Below are positions 29,525-38,539 of a stretch of DNA of 64,000 nucleotides, in pieces (within the stretch, counting starts at the first letter, position 1; each line of letters begins with the position of its first letter). The notes under the pieces were generated by a model. The model made no database searches. It saw only the letters and a list, made by a program, of their open reading frames with translations, and was not told the DNA's origin. Made by a program: the position numbers and the translations under genes. The stretch is from Longimicrobiales bacterium (lineage in GTDB: Bacteria > Gemmatimonadota > Gemmatimonadetes > Longimicrobiales > Gaopeijiaceae). The DNA lies in contig OZ241869.1 of the NCBI GenBank assembly GCA_965202805.1, positions 32,001 to 96,000 on the forward strand. The letters are read 5' to 3'.

Positions 29525-30346
29525 TCAGCCCGCCGCCTGGAATCCGGCGACCCGCCGCAGCGTGCCATCGTAGTCGGCGCGCAGGTGGTTGAAGCCTTCC
29601 TGGACCCCCTGACCCTGAGCCGAGGAGCGCCATCCCACCAGCGCCTCGCCCCGGCACACGCGCACGTCGCCGGTGGGCTCGATGCTCCAGCCGGGCATGA
29701 AGCGGTGGCAGTTGGCGATGTGCAGGCTGAGGCGCTCGATGCCCCGCAACACCGCCCAGTCGTCGCGGAATTCGAGATCGGGGGCGCAGCAGGCGCGCAG
29801 CGACTTGAGCCGGGCGGCCTCGTCCGGTTCGTTCCAGGCTGCCCACCAGGCGGGCAGTGCGCGCGCCAGCCCCGCCGCCAGATCGGTCCTGTTCGCGGAC
29901 AGGGCCAGGCGGCCCAGATGGAAGCGCCAGCCGTCCTCGTGCTCGCGCGCCGTGCGGGCGCTGAGAAAGCCACTGTGGCGGACCTCCACGTGCGCACCCC
30001 CCTGGCCGTCGTTGACGCGGAACTCCACCCGCGACGACGCGGCCGGCATGGTCTCCGCCTGCGGGCCCGACTCGATGCCCCAGGAGAGCGCGAACCGGCG
30101 CCCGAGGTCGTCGAAGTCGAGCACCTCGCCGGCGAGCACCAGTTGGTACTGGGGGAACCGGGCCCGGTAGGGGCTCCCGACCCGGGTCTCGAAGGAGACC
30201 TGACCGCCCATCCAGGCCGAGAAGGGTTCCGGTCCGGAGAGGATGCCCCAGACGGTGTCGGCGCTGGCCTCGATGTGGATGGAAAGCGCGACTTCGGGGG
30301 GTGCGGAATCGCTCCCCTGGCTCGCGTCCGCGCGGCGCTCGCTCAT
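29525..30346 (-). CDS. SRPBCC (AHSA1-like) + SnoaL-like two-domain protein
   Basis: IHIEASADTVW...HSGF...GWRFHLGRL followed by WWAAWNEPD...RGIERL. Confidence 0.7.
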   Translation of the reverse strand: MSERRADASQGSDSAPPEVALSIHIEASADTVWGILSGPEPFSAWMGGQVSFETRVGSPYRARFPQYQLVLAGEVLDFDDLGRRFALSWGIESGPQAETMPAASSRVEFRVNDGQGGAHVEVRHSGFLSARTAREHEDGWRFHLGRLALSANRTDLAAGLARALPAWWAAWNEPDEAARLKSLRACCAPDLEFRDDWAVLRGIERLSLHIANCHRFMPGWSIEPTGDVRVCRGEALVGWRSSAQGQGVQEGFNHLRADYDGTLRRVAGFQAAG

Positions 30347-30545
30347 CGATTCTCTCCCGGGTGGGGGTGGTCCAGGTCCGGACGGGTGTCTTCCGGGTCG
30401 AGTGTTCGTCGGAGGGTGGTCCCGGTGTGCGGGAAGCTTCACGACGGGGGAAGGGCGGCCTCCCTCGCGCCCCGCCGCGGATGCCGGGCCGCCCGCGGGC
30501 TCCTATTGTAGGTTGCCCGTCCGGCGCAACCAACCCGGGAGACCG

Positions 30546-33500
30546 ATGATGGACCTCAGTGCATGGATGCGCGTCAGAACCCGCTGGAAGATCCGGTCCG
30601 CGTTGGCCGTGGCCTTCCTGGCCATGGCCGCGCACTCGCCTGCGTGCGCGCCACCCGCCGCTGAAGTCGAAGACGAAGCCCTGACCCTCACCTGGGAGAA
30701 CATCTTCACCCGCAACCGGGGCGCCCGTCAGGCTGCGCTCTCGCCCGACGGCGCATGGGTCGCGGTCACTGCGCGCACGGCGGACTTCTCGGGCATCTTT
30801 CTCGTTGCGGTGGATGGTGATCCGGCGCCCGCGCCGTGGGTGGAGGGCTCGTCGCCGGTCTGGTTCAGCGACGGGTCCGGCATCGTCTTCTCGCGGGGCG
30901 GGGACCTTTGGCGGGCGGCGGTGGGATCGAGCGAGCCGACCCGCATCACCGACGACCCGGACGACGAACGGGCCGCGCGGCCATCGCCGGACGGCAGCAC
31001 CATCGCCTTCTACAGCGGGCGCTCGGGCCACCAGGACATCTGGACCGTGCCGGCCGACGGTTCCGCTCCGCCAGCGCAGCTCACGCGCGCCTCCATGGCG
31101 GCGGACGACTTCCGCTTCGCCCCCGCCTGGTCGCCGGACGGGACCCGCGTCGCCTACTACTCCAACCGGAGCGACTACTGGGAGGACGACATTTGGGTGG
31201 TAGAGGTCGCGACCGGCGAGGAGCGGCAGATCTCCAGCAGCCTGATGGCCTCTTCCGCGCCGGTCTGGTCGCCTGACGGATCCCGCATCGCCCTTCTCGG
31301 CACCTCCAAGGACGAGTACTGGTACGAGGACCTCGCCTACATCTACCTCCTCGACCCGGAAGCGGGCACGGAGGAGATCGTTCCCATGCAGGTTCACGCC
31401 ACCGACTGGCTGCACAACCACACCGTCACCTGGGCGGGCGACGGCTCGGAACTCTTCTTCCCCTATCACGAGCGGGCCGAGGTGGAACTGTGGCGGGTGC
31501 CCGTGACCGGGGGCGTTGCGACCCGGGTGACGAACATGGGCGGGTCCTTCCGCGCCTACCACGCCACCCCGGACGGCTCCGCGTTCGTCTTCCTGCGCTC
31601 GACCTCGACTCGCGGTACGGAGGTGGACTACGTCCCGGCCGCGGGCGGGGCGGCGCGCCGGCTCACCCGATTCTCGACCCGGTGGAGGGGGCTGGTCGAG
31701 GCGGAGGAGGTCAGCTACCGCAGCTGGGACGGCCTCTATATCCAGGGCTTTCTATTCCGGCCGCCGGGCTTCCCCGAACACTATGGTACGACAATATCAG
31801 ACGACTATGCGACATATCCCGCACTGGTCATGGTCCATGGGGGCGGCACCAACTCCTATCTCAAGGGGCTGAGCCTCACCGAGCAGTATCTGGCGCAACT
31901 GGGGTATGTGGTCCTGGCCGTCAACTATCGGGGCGGCTCGGGCTTCGGGCGCGAGTTCCAGGACCTGGGCGTGGGGGACTGGGCCAACGGGCAGGCCCTC
32001 GACGCGGCCGCGGCCGCCGATTTCCTCAGGGCGCAGCCATGGTCCAACGGGAGGATCGGCATCTACGGGTACAGCTACGGGGGCATTCAGAGCATGGCGG
32101 CCATCGCCCGCGCGCCCGACGCCTTCGACGCCGCCGTGCCCATGGCGGGGATCTACGACTTTGCCGACGCCTACACCAACGCGGACCGGCTGGGAAAGAT
32201 CTTCATCAGGACCGGACACGGGGGCGCACCCGGGGAGCGGCCCGGCGTCTACGCCGTCAGCAATACGCTGGCGCGCGTGCCCGACATCGTCACGCCAACC
32301 CTGATCATGCACGGAGAGGAGGACGTACGCGCCCCGTTCCGCCAGTACGAGCTGGCCGTGGAGATCCTGGAGAGGGAAGGGAAGATCTACGAGAGCCACT
32401 CCTATCCCGGCGAACCGCACGGCTTCCGCAATCCGATGAACCGGGTGGACATGTACCGGCGCCTGGAGGGGTGGTTCGCGCGATGGCTGAAGGAGGATGC
32501 CGGCGACCCGGTCTGGCCGGGCGAGGAATGGCCGGTCTCCAACCCCGGGGCGGAGGGGCTTGATCCCGCGGCCATCGATTCGCTCATCGCCGATATCGAC
32601 GCCGGCCGGTTCGGGCTCATCGACCACTTCCTGCTGATCCGCAACGGGCGCGTGGTCGCGGATCGGCAGTGGGATCACGGCGAGGAGCATGCGCGCATCC
32701 TGGCCGGGCAGGAGGATACGGTCAGCCACCCCTACAACTACGATCATCCCGACTGGCACCCGTACTACCGCGACACGCCGCTGCACACCCTCCAGTCCGT
32801 CACCAAGAGCGTGACCTCGGTCGCCTTCGGCATCGCGGTCGACGCGGGATACATCGACGGGGTCGACGTGCCGGCATGGCCGTTCCTGGTCGCGTACGGT
32901 CCGGACCTGGGCGAGCCGCGGCGGGCGAAGGCGACGCTGGCCGACTTCCTCACCATGCGCAGCGGCATCGACTGGGCGGTTCCCGGGCAGACCTACGCCG
33001 ACGACACCCACCCGACCAGCGAACTCGAGGCGAGCGACGCGTGGATCGACTATGTCGTGCGCCGTCCCGTGGGAACCGAACCCGGAACCCGCTTCGACTA
33101 CAACGACGGCGTGAGCGTCCTCCTGGGGAAGATCCTGCGCGAGGCGACCGGACAGCGCCCCGACGCCTGGGCGGAGGAACATCTGTTCCGGCCCATCGGC
33201 ATCGAGGCGCATTACTGGAAGATCACCCCGGACGGAGAGGCGGACACGGAGGGCGGGCTCTACCTCGCCCCCCATGACCTGGCGCGAATCGCGTACCTGA
33301 TGCTGCGCGAGGGCGAGTGGGAGGGACGGCGGATCGTGTCCCGCGAATGGGTGCGGGCGTCCACCTCGCCCGTAATCCCCGACCTCAACCCCCGCAACGG
33401 CCGCGATGACGGAGGCTACGGATACCAATGGTGGGTGCCGTTCCACGAGGACGGGGAGACCCGGGTCTTTTCGGGCAACGGCTACGGCGGCCAGTTCCTG

Positions 33501-33620
33501 CACATCGTCCCGGAGCACGATCTGATCGTGCTTTTCAACGGATGGACGCTGCACCAGCGCGCGGAGTTCTCGAGCTGGACCGCGCTCCAGGACCGGATTC
33601 TGCCCGCCATTCGGGGCTGA
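30546..33620 (+). CDS. S9 peptidase (PD40 propeller + alpha/beta hydrolase) fused to a beta-lactamase-family serine hydrolase
   Basis: WSPDG repeats; VHGG, GYSYGG, HGEED, EPHGF; then SVTKS, FLTMRSG, FDYND, YGYQWW, GYGGQ. Confidence 0.88.
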   Translation: MMDLSAWMRVRTRWKIRSALAVAFLAMAAHSPACAPPAAEVEDEALTLTWENIFTRNRGARQAALSPDGAWVAVTARTADFSGIFLVAVDGDPAPAPWVEGSSPVWFSDGSGIVFSRGGDLWRAAVGSSEPTRITDDPDDERAARPSPDGSTIAFYSGRSGHQDIWTVPADGSAPPAQLTRASMAADDFRFAPAWSPDGTRVAYYSNRSDYWEDDIWVVEVATGEERQISSSLMASSAPVWSPDGSRIALLGTSKDEYWYEDLAYIYLLDPEAGTEEIVPMQVHATDWLHNHTVTWAGDGSELFFPYHERAEVELWRVPVTGGVATRVTNMGGSFRAYHATPDGSAFVFLRSTSTRGTEVDYVPAAGGAARRLTRFSTRWRGLVEAEEVSYRSWDGLYIQGFLFRPPGFPEHYGTTISDDYATYPALVMVHGGGTNSYLKGLSLTEQYLAQLGYVVLAVNYRGGSGFGREFQDLGVGDWANGQALDAAAAADFLRAQPWSNGRIGIYGYSYGGIQSMAAIARAPDAFDAAVPMAGIYDFADAYTNADRLGKIFIRTGHGGAPGERPGVYAVSNTLARVPDIVTPTLIMHGEEDVRAPFRQYELAVEILEREGKIYESHSYPGEPHGFRNPMNRVDMYRRLEGWFARWLKEDAGDPVWPGEEWPVSNPGAEGLDPAAIDSLIADIDAGRFGLIDHFLLIRNGRVVADRQWDHGEEHARILAGQEDTVSHPYNYDHPDWHPYYRDTPLHTLQSVTKSVTSVAFGIAVDAGYIDGVDVPAWPFLVAYGPDLGEPRRAKATLADFLTMRSGIDWAVPGQTYADDTHPTSELEASDAWIDYVVRRPVGTEPGTRFDYNDGVSVLLGKILREATGQRPDAWAEEHLFRPIGIEAHYWKITPDGEADTEGGLYLAPHDLARIAYLMLREGEWEGRRIVSREWVRASTSPVIPDLNPRNGRDDGGYGYQWWVPFHEDGETRVFSGNGYGGQFLHIVPEHDLIVLFNGWTLHQRAEFSSWTALQDRILPAIRG

Positions 33621-33630
33621 CCCGCCGACC

Positions 33631-34752
33631 ATGGGCGCGTTCGGCCTTCGAGCCAGCTATCGGCTGAGCTGCCGGAGCCTGGGCGAAGCAGTGTCCCTCG
33701 CGGGAGCCGTCGCGCGCGAGCAGACCGTCGAAGCCCCTCCCGGCGTCGGCGGTGACAGGCTTCAGGCGCGGATGCTGGGACGCATCGAGCGGATCGAGCG
33801 CGGACGCGGAGGAGGATGGCGGACACGGATCGCCTACCCGCGGGACGCCACCACGACGGAGCTCACCCAGCTCCTCAACGTTGCATACGGCAACGTGTCG
33901 CTCATGGACGGGGTGCGTCTGGTGGGACTCGACTTCGCGCCGGCCGTTCTGCGGTCGCTGCCCGGGCCACGGTTCGGGATCGGCGGCATCCGCTCGCTGG
34001 TCAGGGCGCCGCGGCGGCCGCTGGTGAGCGCGGCCATCAAGCCGGTCGGGCTGTCGTCGCGCGGACTTGCCCGCCAGGCCGCCGCCTTCGCCCGCGCGGG
34101 AGTGGACATCGTAAAGGACGACCACGGGTTGGCGGTCCAGGGTTCGGCTCCGTTTTCGGAGCGCACGCGGATGATCGCGGAGGCGGTCGCGGCCGCGAAT
34201 GCACGGGTGGGAGGGCGCACCGCCTATTTCCCCAACGTCACGGGTCCGCTGGATACCCTCGGCGAGCGACTGGAGCAGGTGGCCGCGCTGGGGCTCGCCG
34301 GCGTCCTGCTGTGTCCGAGCCTGATGGGGCTGGATGCGCTCCGCCGGGTCGCCGCCGGCTCCCGCGCGCTGGCGGTCATGGCCCACCCCTCCCACGCGCA
34401 GACCGCGCCCCGCCGGGCGGAGGGAATCGCCCCGGATGTGCTGCTCGGCACCCTTTACCGGGTTGCGGGCGCCGACATCGTGGTGTACGTAAACGCGGGC
34501 GGGCGCTTCTCGTGGCCCGAGGAGACCTGCCACGCGGTCAACAGGCGCCTGCGGGAGCCGTTGGAGCCGCTTCGCCGTGCTCTCCCCGCTCCTGCAGGAG
34601 GCGTGAACGCCGCCGAGGCCGGCCACTGGTTCGCCTGCTACGGGCCGGACACCATGCTGTTGATCGGGGGAAGCCTCCTGGTGCAGCGGGACCTGGAGGG
34701 CGCGGCGCGGCGTCTGGTGGAAGCGGCAGTCCGAGGAGGGATGAACAGGTGA
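33631..34752 (+). CDS. RuBisCO-like protein (form IV RLP)
   Basis: EQTVE, GNVSL, PGPRFG, IKPVGLS, DIVKDDH (KDDE in true RuBisCO), YFPNVT, MAHP, PAPAGG, IGGSL. Confidence 0.92.
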   Translation: MGAFGLRASYRLSCRSLGEAVSLAGAVAREQTVEAPPGVGGDRLQARMLGRIERIERGRGGGWRTRIAYPRDATTTELTQLLNVAYGNVSLMDGVRLVGLDFAPAVLRSLPGPRFGIGGIRSLVRAPRRPLVSAAIKPVGLSSRGLARQAAAFARAGVDIVKDDHGLAVQGSAPFSERTRMIAEAVAAANARVGGRTAYFPNVTGPLDTLGERLEQVAALGLAGVLLCPSLMGLDALRRVAAGSRALAVMAHPSHAQTAPRRAEGIAPDVLLGTLYRVAGADIVVYVNAGGRFSWPEETCHAVNRRLREPLEPLRRALPAPAGGVNAAEAGHWFACYGPDTMLLIGGSLLVQRDLEGAARRLVEAAVRGGMNR

Positions 34753-35222
34753 GCAGGTCTCGCGTCATTCGCGGAGGCGCCGGGGAGTGGGGGGACATCG
34801 AGCCCCGGCGCTACAAGCACGAGGAAGACGGTCTTGCCCGGTTCCGCGGCGTGACCCGCCACACGCTGCTCGGAGCCGGTCCGGGCGGCGAGGCCGGACT
34901 GGGCTTCGAACTGCGGTACTTCGAGGTGGCGCCCGGAGGCCATTCCTCGCTCGAGCGCCACGAGCACGGTCACGCGGTCGTGATCGTGAAAGGGAAGGGC
35001 GCGGTGCGCCTGGGCGAGGCTACGGAGCCGGTCTCGGCGCTCGATGTCGTGTATGTGGCTCCGCACGATGTCCACCGCTTTTCGGCCGACGCGGGGGAAG
35101 GGCTCGGCTTTCTCTGCGTCGTGGACCGCGTGCGGGACCGCCCGGTCGCGGTGGACGAGGACGGTCCCGGCGGCTCCGCTTCCCGGGGCGCGACCGGGCC
35201 ACGGCACCGGGGGGCCCCGTGA
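34749..35222 (+). CDS. Cupin protein, putative methylthio-xylulose-5-P methylsulfurylase
   Basis: LRYFEVAPGGHSSLERHEHGHAV, HDVHRF, FLCVVDRVRDRP; GTGA overlaps with RLP and mtnA. Confidence 0.8.
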   Translation: MSRSRVIRGGAGEWGDIEPRRYKHEEDGLARFRGVTRHTLLGAGPGGEAGLGFELRYFEVAPGGHSSLERHEHGHAVVIVKGKGAVRLGEATEPVSALDVVYVAPHDVHRFSADAGEGLGFLCVVDRVRDRPVAVDEDGPGGSASRGATGPRHRGAP

Positions 35223-36334
35223 AGGTCGGCGGCGTTCCCTATCGCAGCATCTTCACGGAGGGCGAGGGCACGGACGTCCAGGTCATCGACCAGACCCTGC
35301 TGCCGCACCGCTTCCGGATCCGCCGGCTCACCAGCGCCGCGGACGCGGCTCACGCCATCTCCGGAATGGTGGTGCGGGGTGCGCCTCTCATCGGCGCGAC
35401 CGCCGCCTACGGGGTCGCGCTCGCAATGCGCGCCGATCCTTCGAACGCATCGCTCGCCGCCTCCGTGAGCCGGCTGATGGCGACGCGCCCGACGGCCGTC
35501 AACCTGCGCTGGGCGCTCGAGAACGCCGGAGCCCTGCTTCGGTCACTGCCTCCCGCTCGGCGCACCCGAGCAGCCTATCGGTTCGCCGACGCGCTCTCTG
35601 AAAACGATGTGCGCATCAACCGAAGCATCGGTGACATCGGACTGGCCATCTTCCGGGAGATCCACGGGGCCGGGAAGGGTGGGGCACGCGAACCCGGCCG
35701 GCCCCTGAACGTGCTCACCCACTGCAATGCGGGGTGGCTGGCGACGGTGGATTGGGGAACCGCCACCGCCCCCATGTACCGGGCCCACGACGAGGGGCTC
35801 GACCTGCACGTCTGGGTGCGCGAGACGCGTCCGCGCTTTCAGGGAGCGGGTCTCACCGCCTGGGAGCTCGGCGAGCACGGGGTGCCGCACACGCTCGTCT
35901 CGGACAGTGCCTCCGGCCATCTGCTGAGTCGCGGGGAAGTCGATGTCGTGATCGTGGGCACCGATCGCACAGCCGCCTCCGGGGACGTCGCCAACAAGGT
36001 GGGAACCTATCCCCTGGCGCTCGCCGCCCGCGACAACGGCGTCCCCTTCTATGTGGCGGTGCCCTCGCCCAGCATCGACTGGAAGACCGAAGACGGAGCC
36101 GATATCCCCATAGAGGAGCGGGATGCGGACGAAGTGACGCTGGTGCGCGGCGTTGATGAAGCCGGGGTGGAGCGCACGGTCCGGATCACTCCCGAGCGCA
36201 CGCGGGCGGCCAACTATGCGTTCGACGTAACGCCTCGCCGGCTGGTCACGGGGCTGGTAACCGAGCGGGGCGTGTGCCCCGCCGACGGGCACGCGCTGAG
36301 AAGGATGTTCGGAAGGGAGGCGGGGTCCGGGTAG
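35219..36334 (+). CDS. mtnA: S-methyl-5-thioribose-1-phosphate isomerase
   Basis: IDQTLLP, VRGAPLIG, TRPTAVNL, LTHCNAGWLA, ETRP, GDVANKVGTY, AFDVTP. Confidence 0.95.
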   Translation: MKVGGVPYRSIFTEGEGTDVQVIDQTLLPHRFRIRRLTSAADAAHAISGMVVRGAPLIGATAAYGVALAMRADPSNASLAASVSRLMATRPTAVNLRWALENAGALLRSLPPARRTRAAYRFADALSENDVRINRSIGDIGLAIFREIHGAGKGGAREPGRPLNVLTHCNAGWLATVDWGTATAPMYRAHDEGLDLHVWVRETRPRFQGAGLTAWELGEHGVPHTLVSDSASGHLLSRGEVDVVIVGTDRTAASGDVANKVGTYPLALAARDNGVPFYVAVPSPSIDWKTEDGADIPIEERDADEVTLVRGVDEAGVERTVRITPERTRAANYAFDVTPRRLVTGLVTERGVCPADGHALRRMFGREAGSG

Positions 36335-36402
36335 GCTCGACATCCCGGCGCTGCAGAGCGGTACGGGAGGCGCGGAGGAGTTCTTGCAGCAGCGTCGGTG
36401 GA

Positions 36403-36588
36403 TTACGCCGAATCGGCCCCGCGCTGTCGGGCGTAGAGCCAGGCCCGTGCCGAGGCCCTGGCGCGCTCCCGGCGCATCTCCCGGTCCCGGTCGGCCCGGG
36501 CGCACTTGGCGCGGCAGGTGGTGCCCCCGCGCGCGGCCGGAAAGGGCTTGCCGCACACCACGCACAGAGTTTCCGATGCCGACGCCAC
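36403..36588 (-). CDS. Small putative Zn-binding protein (C-x2-C-x12-C-x3-C)
   Basis: GTG preceded by GAGGG; CVVCGKPF...TCRAKC followed by a basic helix. Confidence 0.5.
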   Translation of the reverse strand: MASASETLCVVCGKPFPAARGGTTCRAKCARADRDREMRRERARASARAWLYARQRGADSA

Positions 36589-36829
36589 GTTCCCTCGTTG
36601 TCTACGGCGATCCTTCATGCTCAGTTATCCGGCTGTATAGTCCCAAAAAGCCATCGCACTTTCCAGCGTCCGGCTGCTGTACGCAACATGAGCCCCACCG
36701 CGTCTCGCGCGGCACGTCTTGAACGTGCTGTATTGTCTCCCGGACTGGATAGACTAATATATGCACCCTGGGCAACGCCGCGTCAAACGACCGTGGCGTT
36801 CCTCTCTGTTCCGTTTCGCTGGAGGTCCA

Positions 36830-38539
36830 ATGCACCGCAGTTTCCTCGCGCTCCCGTGGGTACCGGCATTCCTCCTGCTCACGGCGACGCCCGTTTCCCG
36901 CGTCGCCGAGCGGCCTCATGCCGGGGTCGTCATCGAGCGGCCTCATGCCGCGGCCGTCATCGAGCGGCCTCGCCCCGGGATCGACATAGAGGCGTATCGC
37001 TTCGAGCTGACGCTCCGCGACGACACCGACCAGATCACCGGACGAGCCACGGTGACGTTTCGTTTCACGGCGGAAGGGGTCGTGGAGCTGCCGCTCGACC
37101 TGGTGGGGGTGAGGCCCGACGGCGAGGGGATGGAGGTCACCGGCGTCCGGGCGGCGGAGCGCCCCCTCGACTACCGCCACGAGAACGACCTGCTCACGGT
37201 TCGGTTTCCCCGGGCCGGTCGCCCCGGCGAACGGGACTCGGTGACGGTGAGCTACCGGGGTGCGCCTGCGTCCGGCCTCCGCATCGGACCCAACAAGTAC
37301 GGCGAACGCACCTTCTTCAGTGACAACTGGCCCAACCGGGCGCGCAACTGGCTGCCGACGGTCGACCATATCGCGGAGAAGGCGGCGTGCGAATTCGTGA
37401 TCACCGCGCCGGCGCACTACCAGGTGGTTTCCAACGGCGTCATCGTCGAGCAAACGGACCTCGCCGGGGGCATGCGCCGCACCCACTGGAGGCAGTCGGC
37501 GCCCATCTCCCCCTGGCTCTTCGTGGTCGGCGTGGCGCGCTTCGCCGTTCACAACCTGGGCGAGTTCGACGGCCGTCCGGTCCAGACCTGGGTGTACGCG
37601 CGCGACCGCGACGCCGGCTTCCACGACTTCGCGGTCCCCACCCTGAGCGTGCTCGCCTTCTTCGACGACTACGTGGGTCCCTTCGCCTACGACAAGCTTG
37701 CCAACATCACCTCGCCGGCAACCGGCGGGGGCATGGAAGCCGCGACGGCCCTCATGTACAGCGAGAACGCGGTCACGGGCGACAGGCCGGTGCGCTGGCG
37801 CAACGTCGTCATCCACGAGATCGCGCACCAGTGGTTCGGCAACGCGGTCACCGAGTCCGAGTGGGACGACGTGTGGCTGAGCGAGGGCTTTGCCACCTAC
37901 TTCACGCTGCTCTTCCGCGAGCACGCCTACGGCAGGGACGACTTCGTCACGGGCCTCCGGCAGGCGGCGGAGCGCGTCGACTTCTGGTACGCGCAGAATC
38001 CCGATTACCGCATCGTCCACGACGGCCTCGAGGACATGTCGCGGGTGACCAGCGTGGCGACCTACCAGAAGGGCGCCTGGGTGTTGCACATGCTCAGAAA
38101 GCGGGTCGGCGACGAGGCCTTCCAGCGCGGCATCCGCACCTACTATGCCCGCCACCTGAACGGCACCGCCTCCACCGACGACTTCATGAGGGCCATGGAG
38201 GAGTCCTCCGGCGACGACCTGCAGGCGTTCTTCGACCAGTGGCTCCGGCACGGGGGCAATCCGGTCTTCGAGGGGACGTGGCTTTACGACTCCGAAGCCG
38301 GAGCGGTGCGCGTCGACCTGCGCCAGGCGCAGGAGACGGGGCTGTTCCGAATGCCCCTCGAAATCGGGGTCTACACGGGGCGTGACCGGCTTCCCGCCCA
38401 GGTGGTCACCGTCGAGGTGGACGCGGCCTCCCACAGCTTCGTCATCCCGGTCGACGCGGAACCTTCCGATGTCCGCCTGGATCCGGATACCTGGGCGCTG
38501 TTTGCGGCGGAGTTCTCGCGCGCGCAGGAGGATCCCTAG
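36830..38539 (+). CDS. M1-family aminopeptidase
   Basis: GGME, HEIAHQWFGN...WLSEGFATY, YQKGAWVLHMLR; GGAGG RBS. Confidence 0.93.
   Translation: MHRSFLALPWVPAFLLLTATPVSRVAERPHAGVVIERPHAAAVIERPRPGIDIEAYRFELTLRDDTDQITGRATVTFRFTAEGVVELPLDLVGVRPDGEGMEVTGVRAAERPLDYRHENDLLTVRFPRAGRPGERDSVTVSYRGAPASGLRIGPNKYGERTFFSDNWPNRARNWLPTVDHIAEKAACEFVITAPAHYQVVSNGVIVEQTDLAGGMRRTHWRQSAPISPWLFVVGVARFAVHNLGEFDGRPVQTWVYARDRDAGFHDFAVPTLSVLAFFDDYVGPFAYDKLANITSPATGGGMEAATALMYSENAVTGDRPVRWRNVVIHEIAHQWFGNAVTESEWDDVWLSEGFATYFTLLFREHAYGRDDFVTGLRQAAERVDFWYAQNPDYRIVHDGLEDMSRVTSVATYQKGAWVLHMLRKRVGDEAFQRGIRTYYARHLNGTASTDDFMRAMEESSGDDLQAFFDQWLRHGGNPVFEGTWLYDSEAGAVRVDLRQAQETGLFRMPLEIGVYTGRDRLPAQVVTVEVDAASHSFVIPVDAEPSDVRLDPDTWALFAAEFSRAQEDP
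36907..36971 (+). repeat. 27-bp in-frame tandem repeat (about 2.4 copies)
   Basis: cgagcggcctc at 36907, 36934 and 36961; encodes ERPHAxxVI. Confidence 0.85.

What the first reader, a model, noticed from the sequence alone, without database searches (positions are those of the whole stretch)
33631..36334. RuBisCO-like protein + cupin + mtnA operon: candidate MTA-isoprenoid shunt
Seen: three genes coupled by GTGA overlaps, namely an RLP with KDDH in place of KDDE (so not a carboxylase), a cupin with a His cluster and FLC..RDRP, and mtnA. Known: in Rhodospirillum rubrum, MtnA, an RLP isomerase and a cupin methylsulfurylase convert the MTA sugar to 1-deoxyxylulose-5-P and methanethiol, linking SAM salvage to isoprenoid synthesis. 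Inference: the same route runs here, in an apparently heterotrophic and probably non-proteobacterial host that may release methanethiol. No MTA phosphorylase or kinase is in the window.
Basis: partly seen in the sequence, partly recalled or inferred. Interest (0 to 1): 0.78.

Follow-up and report, generated by a model that had tools for sequence, protein, structure and literature searches.

The report
RuBisCO-like, cupin, MtnA salvage operon
A sponge-associated Gemmatimonadota bacterium carries, as one tightly packed operon, the three signature enzymes of a known route that turns the S-adenosylmethionine by-product methylthioadenosine into an isoprenoid precursor and methanethiol, so this is a new host for a known pathway, with an unusual and unresolved entry step.

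Summary
Three + strand genes overlap by GTGA: a 373-aa RuBisCO-like protein (RLP, KDDH motif), a 157-aa cupin and a 371-aa MtnA.

The reading is supported. The RLP's best solved relative is the Rhodopseudomonas palustris RLP 3qfw (222 bits; best MtnW 138), and it fails all MtnW, OiaX and RuBisCO cut-offs. The cupin matches Rru_A2000, the R. rubrum methylsulfurylase (E 8e-28, 42% identity). MtnA passes its curated cut-off.

RLP and cupin are adjacent or fused in 58 of 80 related loci from many phyla. In 201 Gemmatimonadota genomes they co-occur (31 both, 5 RLP only, 1 cupin only).

The 98%-complete genome has dxs and dxr. Not found: MtnB, C or D over cut-off, MtnP, MtnK, MtnN, spermidine synthase, SAM decarboxylase or glutathione synthetase. 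The entry step, the source of methylthioadenosine and the thiol co-substrate therefore differ from R. rubrum and are unknown. Candidates are an Asp-type PunA phosphorylase, or a deaminase plus a second PunA.

The RLP lies in a sister subclade of the proteobacterial enzymes (36% identity to 3qfw). No activity or expression data exist.

Verdict: a new member of a known kind. The scan found related RLP-cupin systems before on other DNA.

The parts
33631..34752 (+). RuBisCO-like protein, 373 aa; predicted 5-methylthioribulose-1-phosphate 1,3-isomerase of the cupin-linked (DeepYkr-like) RLP clade; KDDH at residues 162-165
   Evidence: Scores 221.8 bits to 3qfw against 137.7 to the best MtnW. A profile of 19 cupin-linked RLPs hits 3qfw at 452.6 bits. 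A betaproteobacterial RLP profile scores this protein at 315.9 bits.
34749..35222 (+). Cupin, 157 aa, GTG start; predicted 1-methylthioxylulose-5-phosphate methylsulfurylase (Rru_A2000 family)
   Evidence: 3ibm E 1.7e-32; 3jzv (Rru_A2000) E 8.1e-28, Z 17.7, 42% identity; 3kgz (R. palustris) Z 18.5. His/Glu cluster and Cys123 are invariant.
35219..36334 (+). MtnA, 371 aa, GTG start; S-methyl-5-thioribose-1-phosphate isomerase
   Evidence: TIGR00512 400.6 bits (cut-off 279); NF004326 447.4 bits (cut-off 271).
34749..34752 (+). GTGA overlap of the RLP stop and the cupin start
   Evidence: read directly from the sequence.
35219..35222 (+). GTGA overlap of the cupin stop and the mtnA start
   Evidence: read directly from the sequence.

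Best explanation
The three genes form one translationally coupled operon that encodes the core of the MTA-isoprenoid shunt. MtnA isomerises 5-methylthioribose-1-phosphate to 5-methylthioribulose-1-phosphate. The RLP moves the carbonyl (a 1,3-isomerisation) to give 1-methylthioxylulose-5-phosphate. The cupin, with a thiol co-substrate, removes the methylthio group and leaves 1-deoxyxylulose-5-phosphate (DXP). DXP enters the MEP pathway through Dxr, and the methylthio group ends as methanethiol. What is shown here is gene anatomy, homology to the characterised R. rubrum and R. palustris proteins, conserved synteny and co-occurrence, and absence of the canonical downstream route. What is inferred is all catalytic activity. 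Also inferred is that 5-methylthioribose-1-phosphate is supplied either by the Asp-type PunA-family phosphorylase (genome C1:3951114-3952010), or by a TRZ/ATZ-family deaminase (C1:3711547-3713118) followed by the Asn-type PunA next to nupC (C1:1377424-1378284). The thiol is inferred not to be glutathione. Methanethiol is either lost or re-used by one of three cystathionine-gamma-synthase-family enzymes.
For: Anatomy. MtnA passes its equivalog cut-off.

RLP: the best PDB match is 3qfw (E 1.5e-64, 221.8 bits), titled RLP from R. palustris (Z 46.3, rmsd 1.6, 350 aligned). 3qfw shares KDDH, whereas MtnW 2oek has KDDE in the same alignment. A profile of 19 cupin-linked RLPs hits 3qfw end to end at 452.6 bits, against 247 for the best MtnW. 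An HMM built only from 8 betaproteobacterial RLPs scores the window protein at 315.9 bits, against 168 and 131 bits for the MtnW models.

Tree of 90 rows: the window RLP sits in an 83-row clade (SH-aLRT 89). That clade also holds proteobacterial RLPs, one of which JGI names S-methyl-5-thioribulose 1-phosphate isomerase. Transketolase-linked RLPs, a Thiodictyon RLP, OiaX and form I RuBisCO lie outside it.

Cupin: E 8.1e-28 to Rru_A2000; Z 17.7 and 42% identity.

Linkage: the cupin is directly downstream of the RLP or fused to it in 58 of 80 loci, and the two are one ORF in L072. In 201 Gemmatimonadota genomes, 31 have both, 5 have the RLP only, 1 has the cupin only and 164 have neither. MtnA is present in 35 of the 36 RLP genomes. 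The congener G007, 100% complete, lacks all three.

Genome: none of mtnB, mtnC or mtnD reaches its cut-off (mtnB: one 28-bit class II aldolase; mtnC, mtnD: no match). dxs scores 782 bits and dxr 416 bits.

Literature: PMC5893883 and PMC4334135 (passages read) describe the pathway and name the reference genes.
Against: No MtnP over cut-off, and no MtnK or MtnN, in this genome. Its only PNP_UDP_1 genes are two PunA-type phosphorylases. 0 of 41 related genomes have an MTAP over cut-off. The PunA pair also occurs in relatives without the operon, so it is not dedicated to it.

No spermidine synthase, SAM decarboxylase or DTW enzyme was found, so the usual enzymatic sources of methylthioadenosine are missing. 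No glutathione synthetase was found, yet glutathione is the co-substrate in R. rubrum (PMC4334135). No O-acetylhomoserine sulfhydrylase reaches its cut-off.

The RLP is only 36% identical to 3qfw. It lies in a sister subclade (support 85) that carries a 5-6 residue insertion after the AHP motif, which 3qfw and the proteobacterial subclade lack. Neither an R. rubrum RLP nor an MtnW sequence could be put in the tree. A normal dxs is present, so the route is not needed for DXP supply.
Confidence: 0.75

Rival explanations
1. The operon mainly salvages 5'-deoxyadenosine, the universal by-product of radical SAM enzymes. A PunA phosphorylase would give 5-deoxyribose-1-phosphate and MtnA would give 5-deoxyribulose-1-phosphate. 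The same 1,3-isomerisation by the RLP would then yield DXP directly, with the cupin needed only for the minor methylthio analogue.
For: The genome lacks the enzymes that normally make methylthioadenosine. It also lacks Pfs and MTAP, which normally clear 5'-deoxyadenosine. MtnA of other bacteria is described as acting on 5-deoxyribose-1-phosphate (PMC10986504, enzyme list in a figure legend). In a sister clade of five loci (L036, L037, L039, L040, L057) mtnA directly follows the RLP with no cupin. 0 of 6 genomes of that clade hold a methylsulfurylase-type cupin above 100 bits. The chemistry follows from the known RLP reaction; this is inference.
Against: In this window the cupin is kept between the two genes, with translational coupling and an invariant Cys and metal site. 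That makes sense only if a methylthio group has to be removed. No paper I could search reports RLP activity on 5-deoxyribulose-1-phosphate. Erb 2012 and Warlick 2012 were not held, so a published test cannot be excluded.
Confidence: 0.15
2. The RLP and cupin act on another sugar phosphate or organosulfur compound of the sponge habitat, for example a DMSP-related substrate, and the neighbour annotated MtnA serves as a general aldose-ketose isomerase.
For: After the Rru_A2000 group, the next best structural relatives of the cupin are DddK DMSP lyases (Z 16.3-16.5, 23-24% identity). The RLP is only 36% identical to the nearest characterised enzyme. RLPs are known to be functionally diverse: OiaX and transketolase-linked clusters are seen.
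Against: The cupin is much closer to Rru_A2000, 3kgz and 3ibm (37-46% identity, E down to 1.7e-32) than to DddK (E about 1e-7). MtnA passes the equivalog cut-off for MtnA specifically. RLP-cupin linkage is conserved across both subclades of the tree, including the one with the proteobacterial proteins.
Confidence: 0.07
3. The RLP is an MtnW-type 2,3-diketo-5-methylthiopentyl-1-phosphate enolase of the canonical methionine salvage pathway.
For: The MtnW models are the best-scoring NCBIfam families (168 and 131 bits). MtnW structures are the second-best PDB group.
Against: Both scores are far below the cut-offs of 409 and 513.6. The motif is KDDH, not the KDDE of MtnW. No MtnB, MtnC or MtnD was found in the genome, so the enolase would have no substrate.
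Confidence: 0.02

Closest known systems
MTA-isoprenoid shunt of Rhodospirillum rubrum (MtnP Rru_A0361, MtnA Rru_A0360, RLP Rru_A1998, cupin Rru_A2000)
   Same: The same three enzyme families: MtnA, a KDDH-type RLP and an Rru_A2000-type cupin at 42% identity. RLP and cupin lie together, and Dxr is present to take up DXP.
   Different: Here mtnA is inside the operon, whereas in R. rubrum the tags Rru_A0360/0361 lie elsewhere (PMC4334135). No MtnP was found. No glutathione synthetase or spermidine synthase was found. No MetY-type sulfhydrylase reaches its cut-off. The host is a non-phototrophic-looking Gemmatimonadota. The RLP belongs to a sister subclade with a loop insertion.
Rhodopseudomonas palustris RLP1 (RPA2169; PDB 3qfw) and cupin (RPA2170; PDB 3kgz from the same species)
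   Same: Best solved relatives of both window proteins. The genes are adjacent. RLP1 is shown in vitro to be the 1,3-isomerase (PMC5893883).
   Different: 36% (RLP) and 37% (cupin) identity only. R. palustris has MtnP and MtnA at another locus, and a parallel DHAP shunt.
Bacillus/Geobacillus MtnW (YkrW-clade RLP enolase)
   Same: Same fold (Z 44.7-44.8) and a role in salvage of the same SAM by-product.
   Different: MtnW keeps KDDE, works after MtnB, and is about 410 aa long. The window protein fails both MtnW models, and the genome lacks MtnB, C and D.
RLP-cupin fusion proteins of uncultured bacteria
   Same: The same two domains in the same order. They fall in the same clade of the tree.
   Different: Here the two are separate, overlapping genes followed by mtnA.
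Transketolase-linked RLP clusters (Agrobacterium sp. MA01 plasmid mtnA-split transketolase-RLP; Vibrio plasmid)
   Same: An RLP next to mtnA, presumably acting on the same ketose phosphate.
   Different: They fall outside the cupin-linked clade and are partnered with a split transketolase, not a cupin.

Membership tests
DeepYkr-clade RLP (5-methylthioribulose-1-phosphate 1,3-isomerase) | RuBisCO large-subunit fold, about 370-380 aa | tested here: met
   PF00016 at 54.4 bits. Model pLDDT 88.6. Z 46.3 to 3qfw, 350 of 352 residues aligned. 373 aa against 378 aa.
DeepYkr-clade RLP (5-methylthioribulose-1-phosphate 1,3-isomerase) | Closer to a characterised clade member than to any other RLP or RuBisCO group | tested here: met
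   221.8 bits to 3qfw against 137.7 for the next group, MtnW. Profile A4: 452.6 against 247. A betaproteobacterial profile scores it at 315.9 bits.
DeepYkr-clade RLP (5-methylthioribulose-1-phosphate 1,3-isomerase) | KDDH in place of the KDDE of RuBisCO and MtnW | tested here: met
   K162-D163-D164-H165 is invariant. 3qfw has KDDH and 2oek has KDDE in the printed alignments. That this motif defines the clade is my inference from those alignments.
DeepYkr-clade RLP (5-methylthioribulose-1-phosphate 1,3-isomerase) | Monophyly with Rru_A1998 and RPA2169 in a tree that also holds MtnW, Photo and other RLP clades | tested here: inconclusive
   The tree of 90 rows puts it in a sister subclade (support 85) of the proteobacterial cupin-linked subclade (support 100), joined at support 89. 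The reference and MtnW sequences could not be obtained. 3qfw shares the short loop of the proteobacterial subclade.
DeepYkr-clade RLP (5-methylthioribulose-1-phosphate 1,3-isomerase) | 1,3-isomerase activity giving a 3:1 mix of methylthioxylulose-5-P and methylthioribulose-5-P | not testable with these tools
   This needs an enzyme assay.
MTXu-5-P methylsulfurylase cupin (Rru_A2000 family) | Sequence and fold homology to Rru_A2000 | tested here: met
   E 8.1e-28 over residues 14-134. Z 17.7, rmsd 2.0, 128 aligned, 42% identity.
MTXu-5-P methylsulfurylase cupin (Rru_A2000 family) | Conserved metal-site Glu/His residues and the GFLC...RDRP segment | tested here: met
   E69, H71, H73, H75, H109, C123, R129, D130 and P132 are invariant in 18 of 18. 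The same segment is seen in 3jzv, 3ibm and 3kgz. The catalytic roles of these residues are recalled, not read; Warlick 2012 is not held.
MTXu-5-P methylsulfurylase cupin (Rru_A2000 family) | Gene next to a DeepYkr-type RLP | tested here: met
   4-nt overlap here. Adjacent or fused in 58 of 80 loci.
MTXu-5-P methylsulfurylase cupin (Rru_A2000 family) | Glutathione available as thiol co-substrate | tested here: not met
   No match to GshB (TIGR01380) in G000 or one congener. gshA and GshF were not searched. Another thiol may serve.
MtnA (S-methyl-5-thioribose-1-phosphate isomerase) | Score over the curated equivalog cut-off | tested here: met
   TIGR00512 400.6 against 279; NF004326 447.4 against 271.
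Complete MTA-isoprenoid shunt as in R. rubrum | MTA phosphorylase MtnP (or MtnN plus MtnK) to make 5-methylthioribose-1-phosphate | tested here: not met
   The best MTAP score is 88 bits against a cut-off of 275. There is no MtnK or MtnN match. Only two PunA-type phosphorylases are present.
Complete MTA-isoprenoid shunt as in R. rubrum | Dxr to take DXP into the MEP pathway | tested here: met
   TIGR00243 at 415.6 bits, cut-off 315.7.
Complete MTA-isoprenoid shunt as in R. rubrum | O-acetylhomoserine sulfhydrylase to re-use methanethiol | tested here: inconclusive
   Three Cys/Met-metabolism PLP enzymes are present. One passes the MetB cut-off; none passes TIGR01326.
MtnW enolase (YkrW-clade RLP) | Score over the curated equivalog cut-offs, and partner genes mtnB, mtnX and mtnD | tested here: not met
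   168.4 against 409 and 130.8 against 513.6. No MtnB, MtnC or MtnD.
Carboxylating RuBisCO (forms I-III) | Score over the curated cut-offs, and the KDDE metal and carbamate motif | tested here: not met
   111.5 against 497 (form III), 105.1 against 438, and 26.3 against 489. H165 replaces the Glu.

The most novel reading that the evidence does not exclude
In Longimicrobiales and their kin the RLP-MtnA pair is a general salvage route for the sugars of SAM waste that starts without MtnP, MtnN or MtnK. An Asp-type PunA phosphorylase, or a deaminase plus PunA, would cleave both 5'-deoxyadenosine and methylthioadenosine. The RLP would turn 5-deoxyribulose-1-phosphate directly into DXP, so that radical-SAM waste becomes isoprenoid precursor. 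The cupin, using a thiol other than glutathione, would handle only the methylthio analogue, some of which may be taken up from the sponge host through the NupC transporter next to the second PunA.
Probability: 0.15. Interest if true: 0.7.

Novelty: new member of a known kind. Interest (0 to 1): 0.35.

Why it matters
The pathway has been demonstrated only in two purple alphaproteobacteria. Here its signature genes sit, more compactly than in either model, in an uncultured sponge-associated Gemmatimonadota. The same RLP-cupin pair turns up in at least nine phylum labels.

[quoted passage not shown] A functional name would correct carbon-fixation inferences from metagenomes.

It would also point to a possible source of methanethiol in sponge holobionts. 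The missing entry enzymes and missing glutathione synthetase mark concrete, testable gaps in how SAM by-products are cleared in this lineage.

Tried and rejected
1. Bringing R. rubrum, R. palustris or MtnW sequences into the session for a full phylogeny failed. Two protein searches listed only the best 120 hits, all uncultured or betaproteobacterial. The genome-contig scan kept the best 80 of 486 loci, none from these species.

2. Erb 2012, both Warlick 2012 papers, Tabita 2007 and Tabita 2008 are not held. Active-site roles and any published test of 5-deoxy substrates could therefore not be read.

3. Fold comparison cannot separate RLP clades: Z is 46.3 for 3qfw, 44.8 for MtnW and 41-43 for true RuBisCOs. 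Only sequence scores discriminate.

4. Expression: no RNA holder was listed among 24 runs. Read laying was not used because contigs cannot show expression.

5. The promoter and terminator scan of 33000-37000 gave 0 promoter-like sites and 1 terminator-like site on the minus strand, no more than in shuffles, so it is uninformative.

6. A four-gene operon with the upstream S9 peptidase/beta-lactamase gene (10-nt gap) was considered and rejected. That neighbour is kept only in close relatives (15 of 80 loci matched) and not in the more distant loci that keep RLP-cupin-mtnA.

7. The single class II aldolase (28 bits to the MtnB model) was considered as MtnB or Ald2 and rejected. It matches generic aldolase II models below their cut-offs.

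8. The 58-67 bit cupins in genomes of the cupin-less RLP-mtnA clade were considered as hidden methylsulfurylases and rejected. They lack the E/H/H pattern and RDRP, and they resemble TM1459-type cupins.
Full report
**What is there.** The window is about 69% G+C, so spurious ORFs abound. One coherent + strand set stands out:
- an RLP at 33631-34752 (373 aa);
- a cupin at 34749-35222 (157 aa, GTG start);
- MtnA at 35219-36334 (371 aa, GTG start).

The raw sequence shows GTGA at 34749-34752 and at 35219-35222. Each start codon therefore overlaps the preceding stop by 4 nt, which is the classic arrangement for translational coupling. Pfam finds RuBisCO_large, Cupin_2 and IF-2B.

The flanking genes are unrelated. 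Upstream is a 1125-aa PD40/S9-peptidase/beta-lactamase protein that ends 10 nt before the RLP. Downstream is an M1 peptidase. These neighbours are kept only in close relatives, so the conserved unit is the three genes.

**Identity of the three proteins.**

*MtnA* passes the curated equivalog cut-offs: TIGR00512 at 400.6 against 279, and NF004326 at 447.4 against 271.

*The RLP* passes no curated model:
- MtnW: 168.4 against 409, and 130.8 against 513.6;
- form III RuBisCO: 111.5 against 497;
- OiaX: 74.1 against 700.

Against solved structures its best match is 3qfw (E 1.5e-64, 221.8 bits), well above the MtnW entries (137.7 bits and below). The entry title of 3qfw is 'Rubisco-like protein from Rhodopseudomonas palustris', and 2qyg is 'rlp2' of the same species. 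R. palustris has two RLPs, and RLP1 (RPA2169) is the DeepYkr enzyme shown in vitro to be the 5-methylthioribulose-1-phosphate 1,3-isomerase (PMC5893883, passages read). So 3qfw is RLP1 by elimination.

In the printed alignments 3qfw has KDDH like the window protein, whereas Geobacillus MtnW has KDDE.

*The cupin* matches three structural-genomics entries:
- 3ibm (E 1.7e-32; Halorhodospira halophila);
- 3jzv (E 8.1e-28; 'Rru_A2000 from Rhodospirillum rubrum');
- 3kgz (E 5.6e-23; R. palustris).

A model of the cupin (pLDDT 83.1) aligns to 3kgz at Z 18.5 and to 3jzv at Z 17.7 with 42% identity. PMC4334135 (passages read) names Rru_A2000 as the MTXu-5-P methylsulfurylase and Rru_A1998 as the RLP isomerase.

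**Family context.** A scan of one genome per species found 486 loci that encode a relative of the RLP; the best 80 were kept. The nearest are labelled Gemmatimonadetes or Longimicrobiales. Four are labelled Gammaproteobacteria but are 86-89% identical and syntenic, so they are probably mislabelled bins. More distant loci come from Acidobacteriota, Eremiobacterota, Betaproteobacteria, Myxococcota, Chloroflexota, Bacteroidota, Balneolota, Rhodothermota, Verrucomicrobiota and Desulfatiglans.

Over these 80 loci:

| Arrangement | Loci |
|---|---|
| Cupin directly downstream of the RLP (57) or fused in frame (1, L072) | 58 |
| Of those 58, full RLP-cupin-mtnA order | 26 |
| RLP directly followed by mtnA, no cupin | 5 |
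| Neither gene within 5 kb | 17 |

One of the 17 (L083) has only 299 nt of sequence downstream of the RLP.

Several independent scores tie this family to the characterised enzyme:
- A profile of 19 cupin-linked RLPs from all these groups hits 3qfw end to end at 452.6 bits, against 247 for the best MtnW.
- An HMM built only from 8 betaproteobacterial members scores the window RLP at 315.9 bits.
- JGI names one betaproteobacterial-type member 'S-methyl-5-thioribulose 1-phosphate isomerase'.
- A KEGG-based survey already uses orthology models for both enzymes (PMC10663253, passages read).

**Tree.** I built a tree of 90 rows: the window, 79 loci (L050 left out as too short), 4 stored proteins and 6 plasmid-borne references. 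The method was quick IQ-TREE, rooted on Cupriavidus form I RuBisCO. The results are:
- An 83-row cupin-linked clade has SH-aLRT support 89.
- Within it, a 27-row subclade (support 100) holds Proteobacteria, Eremiobacterota, Chloroflexota, Myxococcota and others.
- A 55-row subclade (support 85) holds Gemmatimonadota, Acidobacteriota and Bacteroidota/Balneolota.
- The window lies inside a 36-row Gemmatimonadota clade (support 100).
- Outside the 83-row clade fall transketolase-linked RLPs (Agrobacterium sp. MA01, Ensifer, Vibrio plasmids), a Thiodictyon RLP and OiaX.

The second subclade has a 5-6 residue insertion after the AHP motif. The first subclade and 3qfw lack it. The window enzyme is thus a sister-group relative of the characterised enzymes (36% identity to 3qfw), not a close orthologue. 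I could not add R. rubrum, R. palustris or MtnW sequences, so formal clade membership stays inconclusive.

**Co-occurrence.** I searched an even draw of 201 Gemmatimonadota genomes, G000 included.

| Query | Genomes with a match |
|---|---|
| RLP, E <= 1e-40 | 36 |
| Cupin profile, E <= 1e-20 | 32 |
| MtnA | 147 (144 over cut-off) |

Combining these, 31 genomes have both RLP and cupin, 5 have the RLP only, 1 has the cupin only and 164 have neither. 35 of the 36 RLP genomes have MtnA. In the window's own genus 6 of 7 other genomes have all three. The seventh (G007, one contig, 100% complete) has none, which fits gain or loss as a unit.

Related genomes are not independent, so I give no statistic. 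The draw behind includes the unpublished genomes G095, G188 and G209. The 41-genome tally includes the unpublished G025.

**Rest of the pathway in this genome** (one contig, 4.02 Mb, 97.98% complete).

| Function | Result |
|---|---|
| MtnB | only a 28-bit generic class II aldolase |
| MtnC | no match |
| MtnD | no match |
| dxs | 782.5 bits, present |
| dxr | 415.6 bits, present |
| Other RuBisCO-family genes | none; the RLP is the only one |
| MTAP (MtnP) | none over cut-off |
| MtnK | no match |
| MtnN | no match |

Canonical downstream salvage is therefore missing, and there is no carboxylating RuBisCO. The entry steps differ from R. rubrum. 0 of 41 related genomes have an MTAP over cut-off.

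The only PNP_UDP_1 genes are two PunA-type phosphorylases, 46% identical to each other.
- One (C1:3951114-3952010) has Asp260 where the other has Asn239. Its best solved relatives carry the same Thr-Asp.
- The other (C1:1377424-1378284) lies next to a NupC transporter.

In human PNP, Glu201Gln plus Asn243Asp lets the enzyme cleave adenosine-type substrates (PMC2799393, passages read). That Asp260 is the equivalent position is my recollection of the motif, not a tool result.

A TRZ/ATZ-family deaminase (C1:3711547-3713118) scores 413 bits on NF006549, 328 on the 5'-deoxyadenosine deaminase model and 262 on the MTA/SAH deaminase model, all below their cut-offs.

Two routes to 5-methylthioribose-1-phosphate are therefore plausible and untested: direct phosphorolysis by the Asp-type PunA, or deamination followed by the Asn-type PunA.

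The genome also gave no match to several other expected enzymes:
- spermidine synthase;
- SAM decarboxylase;
- a DTW aminocarboxypropyl transferase;
- glutathione synthetase.

The origin of methylthioadenosine is thus open. Possibilities are minor enzymes, spontaneous SAM decay (from my own knowledge) or uptake. The thiol co-substrate is also open.

Of three Cys/Met-family PLP enzymes, one passes the MetB cut-off and none passes the O-acetylhomoserine sulfhydrylase cut-off. Methanethiol re-use is therefore possible but unproven.

**Habitat.** The DNA is held at more than half of its sampled words by 14 runs, mostly labelled sponge metagenome; 20 holding runs span 9 studies. No RNA holder was listed, so I have no expression evidence.

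**Comparison and novelty.** In mechanism this is the R. rubrum/R. palustris MTA-isoprenoid shunt core. The differences are:
- mtnA is fused into the operon;
- the RLP belongs to a sister subclade;
- MtnP, the polyamine-derived source of methylthioadenosine and glutathione synthetase were not found;
- the host phylum is different.

[quoted passage not shown] My literature searches found no paper that assigns this pathway to Gemmatimonadota. Those searches cover only the held library.

This scan has noted related systems before on other DNA: RLP-cupin fusions, transketolase-linked RLP clusters, and an RLP-free cupin route. I rate the finding a new member of a known kind: a sound annotation of moderate interest. 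The open entry step and the cupin-less RLP-mtnA clade are the parts worth following.

Noticed in passing
L072:5001-6530 (uncultured Desulfatiglans MAG): The RLP and the methylsulfurylase-type cupin are one open reading frame of about 510 aa with no stop between them, a Rosetta-stone fusion of the two window genes.
   Followed up: partly
L036, L037, L039, L040, L057 (and L038); genomes G227-G232: This is a well-supported Gemmatimonadota subclade in which mtnA follows the RLP directly with no cupin. None of the 6 genomes has a methylsulfurylase-type cupin above 100 bits. Four have only a 58-67 bit TM1459-like cupin without the E/H/H and RDRP residues. What removes the methylthio group there, or whether the substrate is the 5-deoxy sugar, is unexplained.
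   Followed up: partly
L116:1-4107 (Agrobacterium sp. MA01 plasmid) and L117:1-3843 (Vibrio nigripulchritudo plasmid): Here an RLP lies directly after a split transketolase (a DXS-N-terminal-like gene plus a transketolase C-terminal gene). It is preceded by mtnA in Agrobacterium and followed by an FGGY kinase in Vibrio. These RLPs fall outside the cupin-linked clade.
   Followed up: partly
L118:1-3105 (Candidatus Thiodictyon syntrophicum plasmid pTs485): A distant RLP sits between idi plus a YjbQ-family gene and a phytoene/squalene synthase gene, that is, in an isoprenoid neighbourhood.
   Followed up: no
Genome C1:3951114-3952010 (+) and C1:1377424-1378284 (-), outside the window: These are two PunA-type purine nucleoside phosphorylases, 46% identical. 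One has Asp and the other Asn at the aligned base-recognition position. The Asn form lies next to a NupC nucleoside transporter. Most of the 41 related genomes show two matches to the MTAP model, whether or not they carry the RLP operon; only G000's two were checked to be PunA-type.
   Followed up: partly
Whole genome G000: No match was found to spermidine synthase, SAM decarboxylase, DTW-domain aminocarboxypropyl transferase or glutathione synthetase. That is unusual for an aerobic-looking heterotroph and leaves its polyamine and low-molecular-weight thiol chemistry open.
   Followed up: no
L012, L013, L016, L022: Four records titled 'Gammaproteobacteria bacterium' carry the operon at 86-89% protein identity; L013, L016 and L022 also share both flanking peptidase genes with the Longimicrobiales records (L012 is too short to show its flanks). 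The bins are probably mislabelled.
   Followed up: no
window 30243-33620 (+): A 1125-aa protein combines PD40 beta-propeller repeats, an S9 prolyl-oligopeptidase domain and a beta-lactamase-family domain. It ends 10 nt before the RLP start. In several relatives only its first 750 residues or so match as one piece.
   Followed up: no
L033:5001-6158 and proteins P0031, P0059: Some Longimicrobiales RLPs carry extra low-complexity insertions: about 17 residues in the N-terminal domain, and about 40 residues before the last phosphate-binding segment in P0031.
   Followed up: no
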